A stretch of DNA of 51,111 nucleotides from Escherichia phage tunus: sequence record NC_049816.1; one strand, written 5' to 3'. Position 1 is the stretch's first letter; the number at the start of each line of letters is the position of its first letter. Of this stretch, positions 47,228 through 51,111 are shown piece after piece. The position numbers and the translations under genes are program-made. Under the pieces are notes generated by a model, which made no database searches, was not told the DNA's origin, and saw only the letters and a program-made list of their open reading frames with translations.

Positions 47228-47255
47228 TGCCCCGCTTATGCGGGGTTTTTTTTTG
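47228..47255 (+). terminator. Intrinsic terminator after primase
   Basis: CCCCGCttatGCGGGG followed by T9. Confidence 0.65.
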
Positions 47256-47319: not shown

Positions 47320-49293
47320 ATGGCGATTTACAGACAAGGCCAAGCGTCTATGGACGCGCAAGGTTATGTAACTGGTTACGGTACAAAATGGCGTGAGCAA
47401 TTAACCTTGATTCGCCCAGGTGCAACTATTTTCTTTCTTGCTCAACCTTTGCAAGCTGCTGTGATTACAGAAGTGATTAGCGATACAAGCATTCGCGCAA
47501 TTACTACTGGCGGCGCGGTAGTACAGAAGACAAATTACCTGATCTTGCTTCATGACTCGTTAACGGTTGACGGTCTTGCGCAAGACGTAGCGGAAACGTT
47601 GCGTTATTACCAGGGGAAGGAATCGGAGTTTGCTGGATTTATTGAGATCATCAAGGATTTTGATTGGGATAAGCTACAGAAGATCCAGGAAGACGTAAAG
47701 ACAAATGCTGACGCAGCCGCAGCAAGCCAGAAGGCAGCTAAAACTAGCGAGAATAACGCAAAGACAAGCGCAACAAATGCAGAGAATAGCAAGAAAGGTG
47801 CTGACACTGCAAAGGCTGCCGCTGAATCCGCGCGCGACGCTGCAAACACTGCAAAGACTGGCGCTGAAGCAGCAAAGTCTGGCGCTGAATCCGCGCGTGA
47901 CGCTGCGAACACTGCAAAGGCAGGAGCTGAAAGTGCGCGAGATCAAGCGGAGGAATACGCAAAGCAGGCCGCAGAACCTTACAAGGACTTATTGCAACCG
48001 TTGCCGGACGTGTGGATACCATTTAATGATTCCCTGGATATGATTACCGGATTCTCGCCGTCATACAAAAAGATTGTCATAGGTGACGATGAGATCACGA
48101 TGCCAGGCGACAAGATTGTCAAATTTAAACGTGCATCAACCGCTACTTACATTAATAAGTCTGGAATGTTTACCGTTGCTGATATTGATGAACCACGTTT
48201 TGAACGTGATGGCCTGCTTATTGAGGGGCAAAGAACGAACTACATGCTCAATTCGGAAAGCCCTGCCAGTTGGGGGCGATCGTCAAATATGGATGTTCCC
48301 GAAACCGGGAAGGATAGTTTTGGTTTTACCTATGGAAAGTTTGTCTGTAACGATTCTCTGATTGGGCAAACCTCAGCCATTAATATGGCATCAATTGCTG
48401 CAACAAAGTCAGTTGATGTCTCAGGCGATAATAAATACGTGACAACCTCATGTCGTTTTAAAACAGAACTGCAGGTAAGGTTGCGTATCCGATTTGATAA
48501 ATATGACGGTAGCGCAACAACTTTTCTTGGTGATGCGTATATTGATACACAAACGCTTGAAATTAATATTACAGGCGGTGCTGCATCAAGGATTACCGCA
48601 AGAGCTAAAAGAGATGATGTTACTGGCTGGGTTTTTGCGGAAGCTACAATACAGGCTGTTGATGGTGAGATAAAAATAGGATCTCAAATACAATATGCAC
48701 CACAGGAAGGTGGTGCAACTGTATCTGGTGATCACATATATCTTGCAACTCCACAGGTAGAGAATGGGTCTTGTGTTTCTTCATTTATTATTTCTGGGGT
48801 GAATGCAACTACAAGGGCAAGCGATATGGTTACAGTGCCAATAAAAAACAACCTTTACAATTTGCCGTTTACAGTTCTTGTGGAGGCTCACAAAAACTGG
48901 AGTAGGACTCCAAATGCTGCGCCTCGTGTTTTTGATACTGGAGGTCATCAATATGGTGCGGCAATTATTCTTGCTTTCGGATCTGCCGAGGGCGATAATG
49001 ATGGATTCCCTTATTGCGATATAGGTGGATCAAACAGAAGGGTTTACGAGAATGCAAAACTAAAAAAGATGATCATGGGAATGAGAGTAAAGAGTGATTA
49101 CAATAATTGCTGTGTAAGTAATGCCAGAATATCAAGCGAAACAAAAACGGAATGGAGATATATAGTATCAACGGCTAATATAAGGATTGGCGGACAAACA
49201 AGTACAGGCGAACGCCATCTTTTCGGGCACGTTAGAAACTTCCGTATATGGCACAAGGCACTAACAGATCATCAATTGGGGGAAATTGTATAA
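47320..49293 (+). CDS. Tail fibre protein (side / L-shaped fibre candidate)
   Basis: About 657 aa, RBS AGGAGG; Ala-rich repeats then beta-rich C-terminal domain. Confidence 0.7.
   Translation: MAIYRQGQASMDAQGYVTGYGTKWREQLTLIRPGATIFFLAQPLQAAVITEVISDTSIRAITTGGAVVQKTNYLILLHDSLTVDGLAQDVAETLRYYQGKESEFAGFIEIIKDFDWDKLQKIQEDVKTNADAAAASQKAAKTSENNAKTSATNAENSKKGADTAKAAAESARDAANTAKTGAEAAKSGAESARDAANTAKAGAESARDQAEEYAKQAAEPYKDLLQPLPDVWIPFNDSLDMITGFSPSYKKIVIGDDEITMPGDKIVKFKRASTATYINKSGMFTVADIDEPRFERDGLLIEGQRTNYMLNSESPASWGRSSNMDVPETGKDSFGFTYGKFVCNDSLIGQTSAINMASIAATKSVDVSGDNKYVTTSCRFKTELQVRLRIRFDKYDGSATTFLGDAYIDTQTLEINITGGAASRITARAKRDDVTGWVFAEATIQAVDGEIKIGSQIQYAPQEGGATVSGDHIYLATPQVENGSCVSSFIISGVNATTRASDMVTVPIKNNLYNLPFTVLVEAHKNWSRTPNAAPRVFDTGGHQYGAAIILAFGSAEGDNDGFPYCDIGGSNRRVYENAKLKKMIMGMRVKSDYNNCCVSNARISSETKTEWRYIVSTANIRIGGQTSTGERHLFGHVRNFRIWHKALTDHQLGEIV
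47815..47945 (+). repeat. In-frame 63-bp tandem repeat inside tail fibre gene
   Basis: Two near-identical 36-bp cores GCTGAATCCGCGCG(C/T)GACGCTGC(A/G)AACACTGCAAAG at 47821 and 47884. Confidence 0.5.
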
Positions 49294-49571
49294 TGCGTGA
49301 TTTAACACTGAAATTTGTAGACAAGGCGGAGTTTTCCGCCTTTCTGGAAGAAATTGAATGGAACGAAAACGAATCCATTCAGGATGCAATCCTGCTCGAT
49401 GTAATCGGCAATACTTACACAGTAATTGCACGATCTGACGATGGCGATGAGATTGCGCGAAAGAACGACGGCTATTTCGTCAATGTGCGAATCATTGATG
49501 ATAAGTTTGATGCCGTAATTTTTAATGGATACGTGGTTGAGTTAGATCAGCCTATTAGAGAATGGGCTTAA
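49293..49571 (+). CDS. Hypothetical protein (possible tail fibre accessory)
   Basis: ATG at 49293 overlapping tail fibre stop (TAATG). Confidence 0.4.
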   Translation: MRDLTLKFVDKAEFSAFLEEIEWNENESIQDAILLDVIGNTYTVIARSDDGDEIARKNDGYFVNVRIIDDKFDAVIFNGYVVELDQPIREWA

Positions 49572-49583
49572 GGAGTTAGGAAA

Positions 49584-50321
49584 ATGGCTACAGTCACTGT
49601 TATACCTAGTGATATAACGAAGCTGAAAAATGACGTTTCAACACTAAAACAGGATGTTGCTACTATTCCTGGTGATATAACGAAGCTGAAAAGTGATGTT
49701 TCGACACTAAAACAGGATGTTGCAGGAAAAGCATCAACTGCTGATGTTGACAATAAGTTGAAACCGTATCTAAAACAAACTGATCTATCATCCGAGTTGG
49801 GTAGCGGAAGGTATAGTGGGAGTTTTTACCCCCTAACTGGTAACGATGCATTTTATTTATTTAATATTAACACAACCGCTCAATCAGCAAACTTATGGCT
49901 TGATCCAAATGCTGGAGTGTCGCAAGTTTTACGCTCAACTTCCTCTTCTCGTTATAAGCGCAGCGTAGAATCGGTTATTGATGAATATGCGGATCTGATG
50001 CTTGAAATGCGTCCTGTGTGGTATCGGTCAACTTGTGAAAGCGACCGTAAAGATTGGGGATGGTACGGACTGATTGCAGAGGAAGTTGGAGAGGTTGCGC
50101 CGGAGTACGTTCACTGGCGACCTCTGCAAGAAGGAGAAGATCCTGCCATTGCTTCAAGTAATGGCATGGTGGCGGAAGGCGTTATGTATGACCGCCTCAC
50201 TGTTCCACTGATTCACCACGTTAAGAAACTGAAAGCGGAAAACGATGAGATGAGAAAAGAAATTGACGAGCTAAAAGCGGTTGTAGAGGCACTGGTAAAC
50301 AAACCAACCACGTTAGACTAA
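49584..50321 (+). CDS. Tail fibre/spike protein with C-terminal intramolecular chaperone-like domain
   Basis: 245 aa, RBS AAGGAG; N-terminal 21-aa tandem repeat; C-terminus (DWGWYGLIAEEVGEVAPEYV...) resembles self-cleaving chaperone domains of fibre proteins. Confidence 0.6.
   Translation: MATVTVIPSDITKLKNDVSTLKQDVATIPGDITKLKSDVSTLKQDVAGKASTADVDNKLKPYLKQTDLSSELGSGRYSGSFYPLTGNDAFYLFNINTTAQSANLWLDPNAGVSQVLRSTSSSRYKRSVESVIDEYADLMLEMRPVWYRSTCESDRKDWGWYGLIAEEVGEVAPEYVHWRPLQEGEDPAIASSNGMVAEGVMYDRLTVPLIHHVKKLKAENDEMRKEIDELKAVVEALVNKPTTLD
49605..49730 (+). repeat. In-frame 63-bp tandem repeat (2 copies) inside fibre gene
   Basis: Direct repeat about 90 percent identical, period 63 bp, encoding IPxDITKLKxDVSTLKQDVA twice. 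Confidence 0.6.
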
Positions 50322-50350
50322 AAAATGCCCCGCATATGCGGGGCTTTTTG
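50322..50350. terminator. Bidirectional intrinsic terminator between fibre gene and ssb
   Basis: GCCCCGCAtaTGCGGGGC with A5 upstream and T5 downstream. Confidence 0.65.
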
Positions 50351-50353
50351 TTA

Positions 50354-50806
50354 TCAGAATGGTATATCGTCGTCAAAGTCAATCGGCGGCTGATTGCTTT
50401 GCTGCGGCTGCTGTTGAGTATTTTGTTGCTGTTGCTGTTGTGGTTGCCCCCATCCTCCTTGCGTTCGCTGCTGATATTGTTGCTGGCTTTCACCTCTCTG
50501 GCTAAATAGCAAGTTTGCAAATCCGCCAGGTTGCACGGTGCTGTAAATCTTTCCGTTGTATTCTCGCGTTTCAACCCGCAAGGTATCGCAGGAAACAGAA
50601 ATAACCTTGCCTACCTGGAATGCCTCAGCATACCAACCATTCAGGCCGTCTGTTTTCGCGTTAAAGAAAAACACATAGTTTGTATACTGCCAATTTCCTT
50701 CACGATCTTTATATCGTTCGGAAAGCTCAACAACATATAGCGTACTGCCGTTAGGCATTTGCTTTACTTTTGGCTCTTTTCGGATCTCACCGGTAATAAC
50801 GTGCAT
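50354..50806 (-). CDS. ssb: Single-stranded DNA-binding protein
   Basis: ATG at 50806 with RBS AGGAGAAAA; Gln/Gly-rich linker and acidic tail ending DDDIPF. Confidence 0.85.
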   Translation of the reverse strand: MHVITGEIRKEPKVKQMPNGSTLYVVELSERYKDREGNWQYTNYVFFFNAKTDGLNGWYAEAFQVGKVISVSCDTLRVETREYNGKIYSTVQPGGFANLLFSQRGESQQQYQQRTQGGWGQPQQQQQQNTQQQPQQSNQPPIDFDDDIPF

Positions 50807-50828
50807 TTTGTTTTCTCCTATGACAAAA

Positions 50829-50849
50829 GGGGCGCAAGCGCCCCGTTTA
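50829..50849 (-). terminator. Terminator/attenuator-like hairpin between erf and ssb
   Basis: GGGGCGCttGCGCCCC followed by U-rich stretch on minus strand. Confidence 0.4.

Positions 50850-51111
<262 letters not shown>

What the first reader, a model, noticed from the sequence alone, without database searches (positions are those of the whole stretch)
47815..49730. Both tail fibre genes contain in-frame 63-bp (21-aa) tandem repeats
Gene 47320..49293 has two copies of an Ala-rich 21-aa unit (GAESARDAANTAK...) and gene 49584..50321 has two copies of IPxDITKLKxDVSTLKQDVA, both at the nucleotide level with a 63-bp period. Repeats of three heptads suggest coiled-coil length modules that recombination could expand or contract.
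Basis: seen in the sequence. Interest (0 to 1): 0.45.

Follow-up and report, generated by a model that had tools for sequence, protein, structure and literature searches.

The report
Heptad-repeat duplications in two phage fibre stalks
Two tail-fibre genes of a T1-like E. coli phage each carry a real in-frame 63-bp duplication that lengthens a helical stalk by three heptads; the repeat in the small second gene varies between related phages and the one in the large fibre gene does not, which is ordinary fibre-gene evolution.

Summary
Both 63-bp repeats are real. TRF scores are 198 and 211, against a maximum of 58 in 30 shuffles.

The window is a Warwickvirus-like phage (Drexlerviridae). The repeats lie in a three-gene lateral-fibre cassette: a 657-aa fibre, a 92-aa ORF, and a 245-aa protein made of a coiled coil plus a C-terminal intramolecular chaperone (ICA) domain.

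Both repeats sit in predicted continuous helices with unbroken heptad patterns.

- **Gene 2:** copy number is polymorphic. Among 34 related phages, 11 have two units, 11 have one, 10-11 have a four-heptad form, and one has an out-of-frame 50-nt duplication.
- One-unit alleles carry copy-1, copy-2 or chimeric SNPs. This suggests several independent unequal-recombination events.
- In 32 homologues the stalk spacing is 24, 31, 38, 45 or 66 aa, always differing by multiples of 7.
- **Gene 1:** the repeat is older. Only two of its three heptads are still alike at the DNA level.
- Its length is invariant in all 40 related records. Only distant Stf-type fibres differ.

The coiled-coil idea is supported for both genes. 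The expand/contract idea is supported for gene 2 only. This is a known kind of fibre-stalk plasticity, of modest interest.

The parts
47320..49293 (+). Gene 1: lateral (side) tail fibre protein, 657 aa. It has an N-terminal virion anchor, an Ala-rich helical stalk and a distal GTA-head-spike-fibre-like domain.
   Evidence: ORF. phrog_1419 tail protein, E 1e-242. Residues 1-175 match the Depo32 depolymerase anchor plus helix bundle (7VYV/7LZJ), E 8e-54, and residues 269-515 match the RcGTA head spike fibre 6TB9. NF048003 covers residues 300-500. Annotated as lateral tail fiber protein in phage PeterMerian.
47665..47973 (+). Ala-rich heptad stalk of gene 1 (residues 116-218). Position a is Ala and position d is Ser/Ala.
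   Evidence: AlphaFold2 predicts a single helix 116-218, pLDDT 81-98. Periodicity at 3.5 residues has power 80 against a shuffle mean of 5.9. Heptad layout.
47821..47946 (+). Gene 1 duplicated 63-nt (21-aa) units: AESARDAANTAKTGAEAAKSG and AESARDAANTAKAGAESARDQ.
   Evidence: TRF 47791-47931, period 63, score 198. Heptad nt identities 20/21, 17/21 and 9/21. Length invariant in 40 related records.
49293..49571 (+). 92-aa ORF between the two fibre genes. Its start overlaps the gene 1 stop (TAATG). Function unknown.
   Evidence: phrog_1361, E 2e-34, unknown function. Annotated in all relatives. Conserved in the same position in a 60-kb phage contig and in E. coli prophages.
49584..50321 (+). Gene 2: 245-aa protein. 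It has an N-terminal coiled-coil stalk, a short pre-ICA segment, a C-terminal intramolecular chaperone auto-processing (Peptidase_S74) domain and a terminal helix.
   Evidence: Pfam PF13884, 22.8 bits against a cut-off of 22. phrog_3299 and phrog_454 match C-terminal ends of long tail fibres. AlphaFold2 gives pLDDT above 90 for residues 130-240. Foldseek hits: MyRF ICA 7DC3 at E 8e-6, with weaker non-significant matches to endoNF 3GW6 (E 0.04) and GA-1 3GUD (E 0.07).
49602..49727 (+). Gene 2 duplicated 63-nt (21-aa) units: IPSDITKLKNDVSTLKQDVAT and IPGDITKLKSDVSTLKQDVAG. This is the polymorphic part.
   Evidence: TRF 49601-49723, period 63, 91% matches, score 211. Nine nt differences between the units, four of them synonymous. 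One-unit, four-heptad and two-unit alleles occur in relatives.
49941..50303 (+). ICA / Peptidase_S74 domain of gene 2 (residues about 120-240), with the putative Ser120-Lys125 dyad.
   Evidence: K125 is invariant and S120 is at least 90% conserved in 57 homologues. Fold match to ICA structures.
47229..47246 (+). GC-rich hairpin plus T-run upstream of the cassette (terminator-like).
   Evidence: (family D4).
50327..50344 (.). Near-identical hairpin downstream of the cassette. It is terminator-like on both strands and lies between gene 2 and the convergent SSB gene.
   Evidence: (27 nt, 89% identical to 47228-47254).

Best explanation
The two 63-bp repeats are tandem duplications of three heptads inside alpha-helical, presumably trimeric, coiled-coil stalks. 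The stalks belong to two proteins of the lateral-tail-fibre cassette of a Warwickvirus-type (T1-like) coliphage.

A coiled coil tolerates insertions or deletions only in whole heptads. In-frame changes that are multiples of 21 nt therefore survive, and they alter stalk length by about 1 nm per heptad without disturbing the end domains.

In gene 2 the two units are still 91% identical. They act as substrates for unequal homologous recombination or replication slippage. Natural relatives therefore carry one unit (3 heptads), a 4-heptad derivative, or two units (6 heptads). More distant homologues carry 5 or 9 heptads.

In gene 1 the duplication is older and partly diverged. It is fixed in the genus and is one local instance of the heptad-wise growth of the Ala-rich stalk seen across Stf-type side tail fibres.

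Shown here: the repeats, the heptad pattern, the helix prediction, the polymorphism and its multiple-of-7 rule, and the different SNP make-up of the one-unit alleles.

Inferred: trimeric state, the recombination mechanism, and any effect of stalk length on adsorption.
For: - Repeats are real and far above chance.
- The window is a Warwickvirus; the closest match is tinuso at 96.6%.
- Gene 2 length classes among 34 distinct phages (39 records): 11 with 738 nt, 11 with 675 nt, 10-11 with 696 nt, and 1 with an out-of-frame 50-nt duplication.
- One-unit alleles are copy-1-type (tinuso, tunzivis, JK16), copy-2-type (tonn), or chimeric with a copy-1 5' end and a copy-2 3' end (swan01). This suggests different crossover points.
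- Four-heptad alleles keep tunus-type copy-1 SNPs in their second heptad and copy-2 SNPs in their third. This fits a 42-nt deletion from a two-unit allele. Phunderstruck instead has two identical heptads.
- Alleles are scattered on a tree of the non-repeat part of the gene.
- Alleles do not track gene 1 length classes.
- Anchor-to-anchor spacing in 32 homologues is 24, 31, 38, 45 or 66 aa, all congruent to 3 mod 7.
- Helix predictions cover both repeats, with matching periodicity.
- Similarity to trimeric coiled coils Lpp, gp26 and fibritin.
- The ICA domain, which is trimeric in solved structures, is confirmed by fold.
- An E. coli prophage Stf stalk shows TRF periods of 21, 42 and 189 nt, all multiples of 21.
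- Published predictions for another Drexlerviridae fibre describe an N-terminal coiled coil plus a T5-like tip plus an IMC domain (PMC11990801).
- A recombination protein and exonuclease VIII are annotated just downstream of the cassette in the relative orkinos.
Against: - Gene 1 shows no length variation in 40 related records, so ongoing expansion or contraction is not a property of that repeat.
- Oligomeric state was not modelled; only monomer AlphaFold2 was available.
- Hydrophobic periodicity in gene 2 is only modestly significant on its own (P about 0.03-0.04).
- A Pro-Gly pair sits at the unit junction (TIPGD) and could kink or interrupt the coil.
- The tree used to argue for recurrence rests on about 590 nt of mosaic sequence. 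Some allele scatter could reflect recombination between phages and not new events.
- No read-level data were available to show within-population heterogeneity.
Confidence: 0.8

Rival explanations
1. The repeats are fixed, ancient structural duplications with no present-day dynamics. Length differences among relatives reflect exchange of whole alleles between phages, not new slippage or recombination events.
For: This is true for gene 1: length is invariant in 40 records and in a relative at 81.6% identity. The third heptad has diverged to 9/21 nt. For gene 2, these phages are mosaic, so allele scatter on a short tree is weak evidence for recurrence.
Against: Gene 2 one-unit alleles have three different SNP compositions, including a chimera (swan01). 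Four-heptad alleles come in two kinds. KMB46 carries an out-of-frame 50-nt duplication made of tonn-type units, within the mostly one-unit part of the tree. Together these need several separate events in the repeat itself.
Confidence: 0.12
2. Gene 2 is not a fibre. It is a trans-acting assembly chaperone or cap for the gene 1 fibre, as annotated for PeterMerian. Its stalk length would then be functionally irrelevant and drift neutrally.
For: It is annotated as putative lateral tail fiber chaperone. The gene is broken by different lesions in 6 of the 17 fetched relatives examined; split or 1-nt-off annotations suggest 4 more among the 34 phages. This suggests dispensability, at least on laboratory hosts. 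The three length alleles occur at similar frequency and are unlinked to the gene 1 allele. Chaperone caps on fibres have been described (PMC10579305, cited).
Against: ICA domains are by definition intramolecular. They fold the segment upstream in the same chain and are then cleaved (PMC4690869; Schulz 2010, cited). Gene 2 aligns to the C-terminal ends of long fibres (phrog_3299 positions 1147-1384, phrog_454). Its first 26 residues match N-termini of other fibre families (phrog_4563). Strict conservation of the heptad register over five length classes argues for structural constraint on the stalk.
Confidence: 0.25
3. The gene 2 repeat is a contingency locus. It would give programmed, high-frequency length switching within a phage population to tune host range.
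For: Three alleles coexist in phages from the same sampling campaigns. Danish wastewater yielded tinuso, tunzivis and tonn (one unit) alongside orkinos and tuinn (two units). The Utah JLBYU phages include both four-heptad and two-unit forms.
Against: There are only two units, at 91% identity. Classical contingency loci have many identical short units and usually shift the frame. There are no population data. Copy number does not co-vary with the receptor-binding allele of gene 1.
Confidence: 0.05
4. The length variation in relatives is an assembly or sequencing artefact, such as repeat collapse.
For: Some relatives show 1-nt indels that could be homopolymer errors, for example orkinos with a C5 to C6 change.
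Against: A 126-nt array is shorter than typical reads. The same three classes recur in genomes from many laboratories. One-unit alleles differ in SNP type. Metagenome-derived proteins show the same classes.
Confidence: 0.03

Closest known systems
T5-type L-shaped tail fibre tips with a C-terminal intramolecular chaperone (pb1; endosialidase endoNF; GA-1 gp12; Peptidase_S74 / ICA domain)
   Same: Gene 2 ends in an ICA domain. This is shown by a Pfam hit, a fold match to 7DC3 with weaker matches to 3GW6 and 3GUD, and a conserved Ser-x4-Lys motif. Drexlerviridae and Dhillonvirus fibres predicted as an N-terminal coiled coil plus a T5-like tip plus an IMC have been published (PMC11990801).
   Different: Gene 2 is very small. 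Only about 119 residues precede the predicted cleavage site, and most of them are the coiled coil. It is a separate third gene downstream of a fibre that itself lacks an ICA domain.
Branched lateral tail fibres of T5-like phages DT57C/DT571/2 (LtfA + LtfB; PMC4728585)
   Same: It is a two-fibre-gene locus with Peptidase_S74 C-termini. LtfA contains a block of tandemly repeated 19-aa motifs. The locus is genetically unstable and one gene is frequently lost on permissive hosts. Gene 2 is likewise often inactivated in isolates.
   Different: There is no sequence homology beyond the ICA domain. Here only the small protein has an ICA. Attachment of gene 2 to gene 1 is not shown. The repeat unit here is 21 aa (three heptads), not 19 aa.
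Ala-rich AKTSETN-type heptad stalk of lambdoid side tail fibres (Stf) and the helix-bundle domain of Klebsiella phage GH-K3 Depo32
   Same: The gene 1 stalk has the same A-x-x-S/A-x-x-x heptads. The N-terminal 175 residues are homologous to Depo32 (E 8e-54). The junction AEPYK..LQPLPDVWIPFNDSLDMITG and the distal part are about 88% identical to E. coli prophage Stf fragments. Prophage stalks show 21-, 42- and 189-nt tandem periods.
   Different: Gene 1 has the Drexlerviridae anchor, not the lambda Stf N-terminal domain PF08400; Pfam gave no hit. The stalk has about 13 heptads, against dozens in prophage Stf. The Depo32 stalk was not resolved in cryo-EM (PMC10581125).
Trimeric coiled coils with whole-heptad length variation (Braun lipoprotein Lpp, P22-family tail needle gp26, T4 fibritin)
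   Same: The gene 2 units resemble the Lpp and gp26 heptads, with V/I at position a, L at position d, and an x-D-V-S-T-L-K-x pattern.
   Different: The matches are weak (E 0.02-0.3 against PDB; Pfam LPP 26.8 bits against a cut-off of 29.1). This is similarity of kind, not family membership.

Membership tests
[quoted passage not shown] | Sequence match to PF13884 at or above the gathering score | tested here: met
   22.8 bits against a cut-off of 22, residues 120-176 matching profile positions 1-57 of 58. The margin is small. Many homologues carry a precomputed PF13884 hit.
[quoted passage not shown] | ICA fold | tested here: met
   The AlphaFold2 model has pLDDT above 90 over residues 130-240. 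Foldseek gives 7DC3 MyRF ICA at E 8e-6 with probability 1.00. Matches to 3GW6 endoNF IMC (E 0.04) and 3GUD GA-1 (E 0.07) are weaker and not significant on their own.
[quoted passage not shown] | Conserved Ser...Lys catalytic dyad at the start of the domain (S-x-x-x-x-K) | tested here: met
   In the motif STSSSRYK, K125 is invariant and S120 and S121 are at least 90% conserved in 57 homologues. Assignment of the dyad is by analogy with endoNF Ser911/Lys916, from my own knowledge.
[quoted passage not shown] | Autoproteolytic release after trimer folding | not testable with these tools
   Needs protein expression or virion mass spectrometry.
Alpha-helical coiled coil (both repeats) | Uninterrupted heptad (3-4) pattern of core residues | tested here: met
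   Gene 2 has V4, I7, I11, L14, V18, L21, V25, I28, I32, L35, V39, L42 and V46. Gene 1 has Ala at position 1 and Ser/Ala at position 4 in about 12 consecutive heptads. Power at period 3.5 has P below 0.0005 for gene 1 and about 0.04 for gene 2.
Alpha-helical coiled coil (both repeats) | Helical secondary structure across the repeat | tested here: met
   Gene 2 helix 11-47, pLDDT about 80. Gene 1 helix 116-218, pLDDT up to 98. Both are monomer models.
Alpha-helical coiled coil (both repeats) | Natural indels restricted to whole heptads | tested here: met
   Gene 2 homologues have spacings of 24, 31, 38, 45 and 66 aa, all congruent to 3 mod 7, n=32. The prophage Stf stalk has tandem periods of 21, 42 and 189 nt.
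Alpha-helical coiled coil (both repeats) | Oligomeric (trimeric) supercoil | not testable with these tools
   Only monomer prediction is offered. A trimer is inferred from the ICA domain and from the Depo32 trimer (PMC10581125).
Drexlerviridae lateral tail fibre (gene 1) | Conserved N-terminal anchor domain shared across the family | tested here: met
   Residues 1-175 match Depo32 of Klebsiella phage GH-K3, E 8e-54. Multiple tail-fibre PHROGs share residues 1 to about 200. BASEL reports that the fibres are related only at the far N-terminus (PMC8594841).
Drexlerviridae lateral tail fibre (gene 1) | Conserved genome position (between the primase and the SSB/recombination genes) | tested here: met
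   Same gene order in the 16 fetched relatives that carry annotation; SECphi27 has none and the IMG/VR contig was not inspected.
Lambda-type Stf (PF08400 N-terminal domain family) | PF08400 N-terminal domain | tested here: not met
   No Pfam family matched gene 1. PF08400 occurs only in the prophage homologues that share the stalk and distal part.
Contingency / phase-variable repeat locus | Many near-identical short units whose gain or loss switches expression | tested here: not met
   There are two units of 63 nt at 83-91% identity, and changes are in frame. The single out-of-frame case, KMB46, is an exception.

The most novel reading that the evidence does not exclude
The gene 2 product is a short side branch or distal tip of the lateral fibre. 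Its coiled-coil length (3, 4, 6 or 9 heptads, about 3-9 nm) would be an adaptive ruler kept polymorphic in nature by recurrent unequal recombination. It would match the reach of its small tip to the thickness of different O-antigen or LPS layers. This would be a length-based axis of host-range variation, independent of receptor-binding-domain swapping.
Probability: 0.12. Interest if true: 0.5.

Novelty: new member of a known kind. Interest (0 to 1): 0.3.

Why it matters
The result gives a clean natural example of how coiled-coil stalks in phage receptor-binding proteins change length only in whole heptads. It shows that one small fibre-cassette gene of a commonly isolated coliphage genus exists as three length alleles at similar frequency.

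This is useful for three purposes:
- annotation, because gene 2 is variously labelled hypothetical, fibre or chaperone;
- phage engineering, because it indicates which stalk lengths are tolerated;
- deciding whether stalk length affects adsorption.

It does not reveal a new kind of system.

Tried and rejected
- **The search for homologous proteins with the gene 1 N-terminal 250 aa.** The search was swamped by low-complexity words. Only 8000 candidates were scored and it returned mostly fragments. I used phage-record BLAST spans and fetched loci instead.
- **The search for related loci in IMG/VR with gene 2.** It gave only one locus.
- **Pfam on gene 1 and on the 92-aa ORF.** No families were found.
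- **Solved-structure sequence search for gene 2.** It gave only weak coiled-coil matches and no ICA hit by sequence. Fold search was needed.
- **Minus-strand ORFs across the Ala-rich region** (47607-47912, 47674-47946 and 47744-48022). I treated them as by-products of GCN-rich repeats, since nothing supports them.
- **Co-variation of the gene 2 repeat allele with gene 1 length class.** None was found.
- **Literature search for a prior description of heptad copy-number variation in this cassette.** Nothing specific was found. This is not proof of absence.
- **±1-nt span differences in two-piece BLAST joins.** I did not rely on them, because PeterMerian shows 718 nt there but is intact at 696 nt in the fetched locus.
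Full report
**What is there**

The window is a T1-like siphovirus of the genus Warwickvirus (Drexlerviridae, Tempevirinae). The region 47200-50400 matches 118 phage records. The best match is Escherichia phage tinuso at 96.6% over the full length.

The finding lies in a compact three-gene cassette between the DNA primase gene and the convergent SSB gene:
- Gene 1, 47320-49293, 657 aa.
- A 92-aa ORF, 49293-49571, whose ATG overlaps the gene 1 stop.
- Gene 2, 49584-50321, 245 aa (annotation of relatives).

Near-identical GC hairpins with T-runs bracket the cassette at 47229-47246 and 50327-50344.

**Observation check**

TRF reports only two long-period arrays in the whole window:

| Coordinates | Period | Copies | Matches | Score |
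|---|---|---|---|---|
| 47791-47931 | 63 | 2.2 | 83% | 198 |
| 49601-49723 | 63 | 2.0 | 91% | 211 |

These figures come, and the repeat finder agrees. Thirty dinucleotide-preserving shuffles never exceeded a score of 58.

Codon identity at positions encoding the same amino acid is about twice what codon usage predicts. Gene 1 has 12 of 16 identical against 5.9 expected. Gene 2 has 14 of 18 against 7.1 expected. These are true DNA duplications.

One refinement applies to gene 1. The underlying period is a single heptad of 21 nt. Two heptad types (A-x-T-A-K-x-x and A-E-S-A-R-D-x) are arranged K R K K R K R. Only two of the three heptads of the 63-nt unit remain close, at 20/21 and 17/21 nt. The third is 9/21.

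**What the proteins are**

*Gene 1* is the lateral (side) tail fibre.
- It matches phrog_1419 at E 1e-242.
- Residues 1-175 are homologous to the anchor plus helix-bundle part of the Klebsiella phage GH-K3 depolymerase Depo32 (7VYV/7LZJ, E 8e-54). That part was too flexible to be seen by cryo-EM (PMC10581125).
- Residues about 300-500 carry a GTA head-spike-fibre domain (NF048003; 6TB9).
- The junction and distal part are about 88% identical to fragments of E. coli lambdoid prophage Stf proteins.

*Gene 2* has three parts: an N-terminal heptad segment, a roughly 45-residue low-confidence segment, and a C-terminal ICA domain.
- PF13884 scores 22.8 bits against a cut-off of 22.
- The AlphaFold2 model has pLDDT above 90 for residues 130-240.
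- Foldseek finds MyRF ICA 7DC3 at E 8e-6, with weaker, non-significant matches to endoNF 3GW6 (E 0.04) and GA-1 3GUD (E 0.07).
- In the motif SSSRYK, Lys125 is invariant and Ser120 is nearly invariant among 57 homologues.
- It aligns to the C-terminal ends of long fibres (phrog_3299 positions 1147-1384).

The same fibre / ~90-aa ORF / ICA-protein triplet occurs in an unrelated 60-kb phage contig and next to the integrase of an E. coli prophage. It is therefore a mobile module.

[quoted passage not shown] Gene 2 looks like a miniature of that plan.

**Coiled-coil reading**

*Gene 1:* residues 131-221 have a 3.5-residue hydrophobicity periodicity of 80, against 5.9 +/- 5.9 in shuffles. None of 2000 shuffles reached the observed value. 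AlphaFold2 gives one helix over residues 116-218, with pLDDT up to 98 exactly over the repeats.

*Gene 2:* the core residues are V4, I7, I11, L14, V18, L21, V25, I28, I32, L35, V39, L42 and V46. They keep an unbroken 3-4 spacing through the junction between the two units. AlphaFold2 gives a helix over residues 11-47.

The weak sequence matches are all to parallel trimeric coiled coils: Lpp, tail needle gp26 and fibritin. The trimeric state itself is inferred from ICA and tailspike precedent. It was not tested here.

**Do the repeats expand and contract?**

*Gene 2: yes.* The 759-nt query matches 39 records, representing 34 distinct phages, all at least 94.6% identical (verified in fetched loci). 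The span falls into these classes:

| Allele | Gene length | Phages |
|---|---|---|
| Two units (6 heptads) | 738 nt | 11, plus this window |
| One unit (3 heptads) | 675 nt | 11 |
| Four heptads | 696 nt | 10-11 |
| Out-of-frame 50-nt duplication (KMB46) | 725 nt | 1 |

The SNPs that distinguish copy 1 from copy 2 show that the one-unit alleles are of three kinds:
- copy-1-type: tinuso, tunzivis, JK16;
- copy-2-type: tonn;
- chimeric, with a copy-1 5' end and a copy-2 3' end: swan01.

This pattern is consistent with unequal crossovers at different points. It does not fit inheritance of a single deletion.

Most four-heptad alleles keep tunus-type copy-1 SNPs in their second heptad and copy-2 SNPs in their third. 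That fits a 42-nt deletion between GATGTT microhomologies in a two-unit allele. Phunderstruck instead has two identical heptads, which needs a separate event.

KMB46 has two tonn-type units with a 50-nt period. This suggests that duplications arise without regard to frame and that selection keeps the in-register ones.

The alleles are interspersed on a tree of the non-repeat part of the gene. They do not track gene 1 length classes. They also coexist in phages from the same sampling campaigns.

Across 32 homologues from phages, prophages and metagenomes, the spacing between the N-terminal MxTxTxIP motif and the DVDNKLK motif is 24, 31, 38, 45 or 66 residues. All values are congruent to 3 mod 7. 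This is strong comparative evidence that the heptad register must be kept.

*Gene 1: no, within the genus.* The spacing between the ETLRYY and PLPDVW anchors is 129 residues in the window plus 17 of the fetched loci where the script found both anchors. This includes morffagbaw at 81.6% nucleotide identity.

All 40 phage records that cover most of 47600-48100 align in a single piece whose span equals the query's. Only distant fibres sharing the junction differ, with spacings of 71 or 104 residues, as do lambdoid Stf proteins with dozens of AKTSETN heptads. One prophage stalk has tandem periods of 21, 42 and 189 nt, all multiples of a heptad.

Heptad-wise growth is therefore the long-term mode for this stalk. 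This particular duplication, however, is old and fixed.

**Mechanism**

Each heptad adds about 1 nm to a coiled coil, from general knowledge of coiled-coil geometry. The gene 2 alleles therefore span roughly 3, 4 and 6 nm of stalk.

The likely process is RecA-independent slippage or single-strand annealing between the 91%-identical units. A recombination protein and an exonuclease VIII gene are annotated just downstream in the relative orkinos. This step is an inference.

Whether stalk length changes adsorption is unknown. BASEL considers Drexlerviridae lateral fibres to be non-essential O-antigen binders (PMC8594841).

**Comparison and novelty**

Tandem repeats and genetic instability in two-gene lateral-fibre loci with Peptidase_S74 ends are already described for the T5-like phages DT57C/DT571/2 (PMC4728585). 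ICA domains and coiled-coil fibre shafts are well known.

I found no prior description of the three-allele heptad polymorphism in this cassette, but it is a new example of a known kind. Interest is modest.

**Seen in passing**

Gene 2 is interrupted by different lesions in 6 of the 17 fetched relatives examined:
- Phunderstruck: Gly159 to TGA.
- EC195 and JLBYU07: both Tyr175 to TAA, although they carry different repeat alleles.
- SECphi27: a 1-nt deletion.
- orkinos: a 1-nt insertion in a C-run.
- KMB46: the 50-nt duplication.

Split or 1-nt-off annotations suggest four more cases among the 34 phages: tuinn, JLBYU19, AV105 and ityhuna.

This points to relaxed selection on laboratory hosts. 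It parallels the instability reported for the DT57C ltf locus.

Noticed in passing
window 49584-50321 compared with L007, L009, L011, L015, L017, L018: The gene 2 homologue is disrupted by different lesions in 6 of the 17 fetched relatives examined. These are G159 to TGA (Phunderstruck), Y175 to TAA (EC195 and JLBYU07), a 1-nt deletion at gene position 690 (SECphi27), a 1-nt insertion in a C5 run at position 245 (orkinos), and an out-of-frame 50-nt duplication (KMB46). Annotation suggests further split copies in tuinn, JLBYU19, AV105 and ityhuna. This suggests the gene is dispensable on laboratory hosts, though some indels may be sequencing errors.
   Followed up: partly
L009 (EC195) and L011 (JLBYU07), codon equivalent to window 50106-50108: The same nonsense change (TAC to TAA at Tyr175, inside the ICA domain) occurs in two phages from different continents. 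They carry different repeat alleles (two-unit and four-heptad). This is either a recurrent mutation or recombination between the repeat and the ICA region.
   Followed up: partly
window 47228-47254 and 50326-50352: Two 27-nt GC-hairpin plus T-run elements, 89% identical, bracket the three-gene fibre cassette. The downstream one reads as a terminator on both strands. They could mark transcription-unit ends and also serve as homology for swapping the whole cassette.
   Followed up: partly
window 47960-49293 (gene 1 residues about 215-657): The junction AEPYKDLLQPLPDVWIPFNDSLDMITG and the distal fibre part are about 88% identical to fragments of E. coli lambdoid prophage Stf proteins (P0141, P0146). 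They also contain a GTA head-spike-fibre domain (NF048003; 6TB9). This indicates exchange of distal fibre modules between virulent Drexlerviridae and prophages.
   Followed up: partly
window 49293-49571: A 92-aa ORF (phrog_1361, no known function, no Pfam hit) is translationally coupled to gene 1 through TAATG. It is conserved between the fibre and the ICA protein in relatives, in a 60-kb phage contig (L019) and in E. coli prophages (L020, L021). It is a candidate adaptor or assembly factor.
   Followed up: partly
L020 125-597 (E. coli prophage Stf homologue): The Ala-rich stalk of the prophage fibre carries nested tandem repeats with periods of 21, 42 and 189 nt. The 189-nt period is 92% matched with a score of 598. 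All are whole-heptad multiples.
   Followed up: no
window 47607-48043, both strands: Several 90-112-aa ORFs in other frames and on the minus strand overlap the Ala-rich repeat. They appear to be by-products of the GCN-rich, stop-poor repeat and have no support as genes.
   Followed up: no
window 50354-50857 (minus strand): The adjacent SSB gene has a Gln-rich C-terminal linker, which gives a short 6-nt tandem repeat on the plus strand (TGTTGC, 50424-50440). This was not examined further.
   Followed up: no
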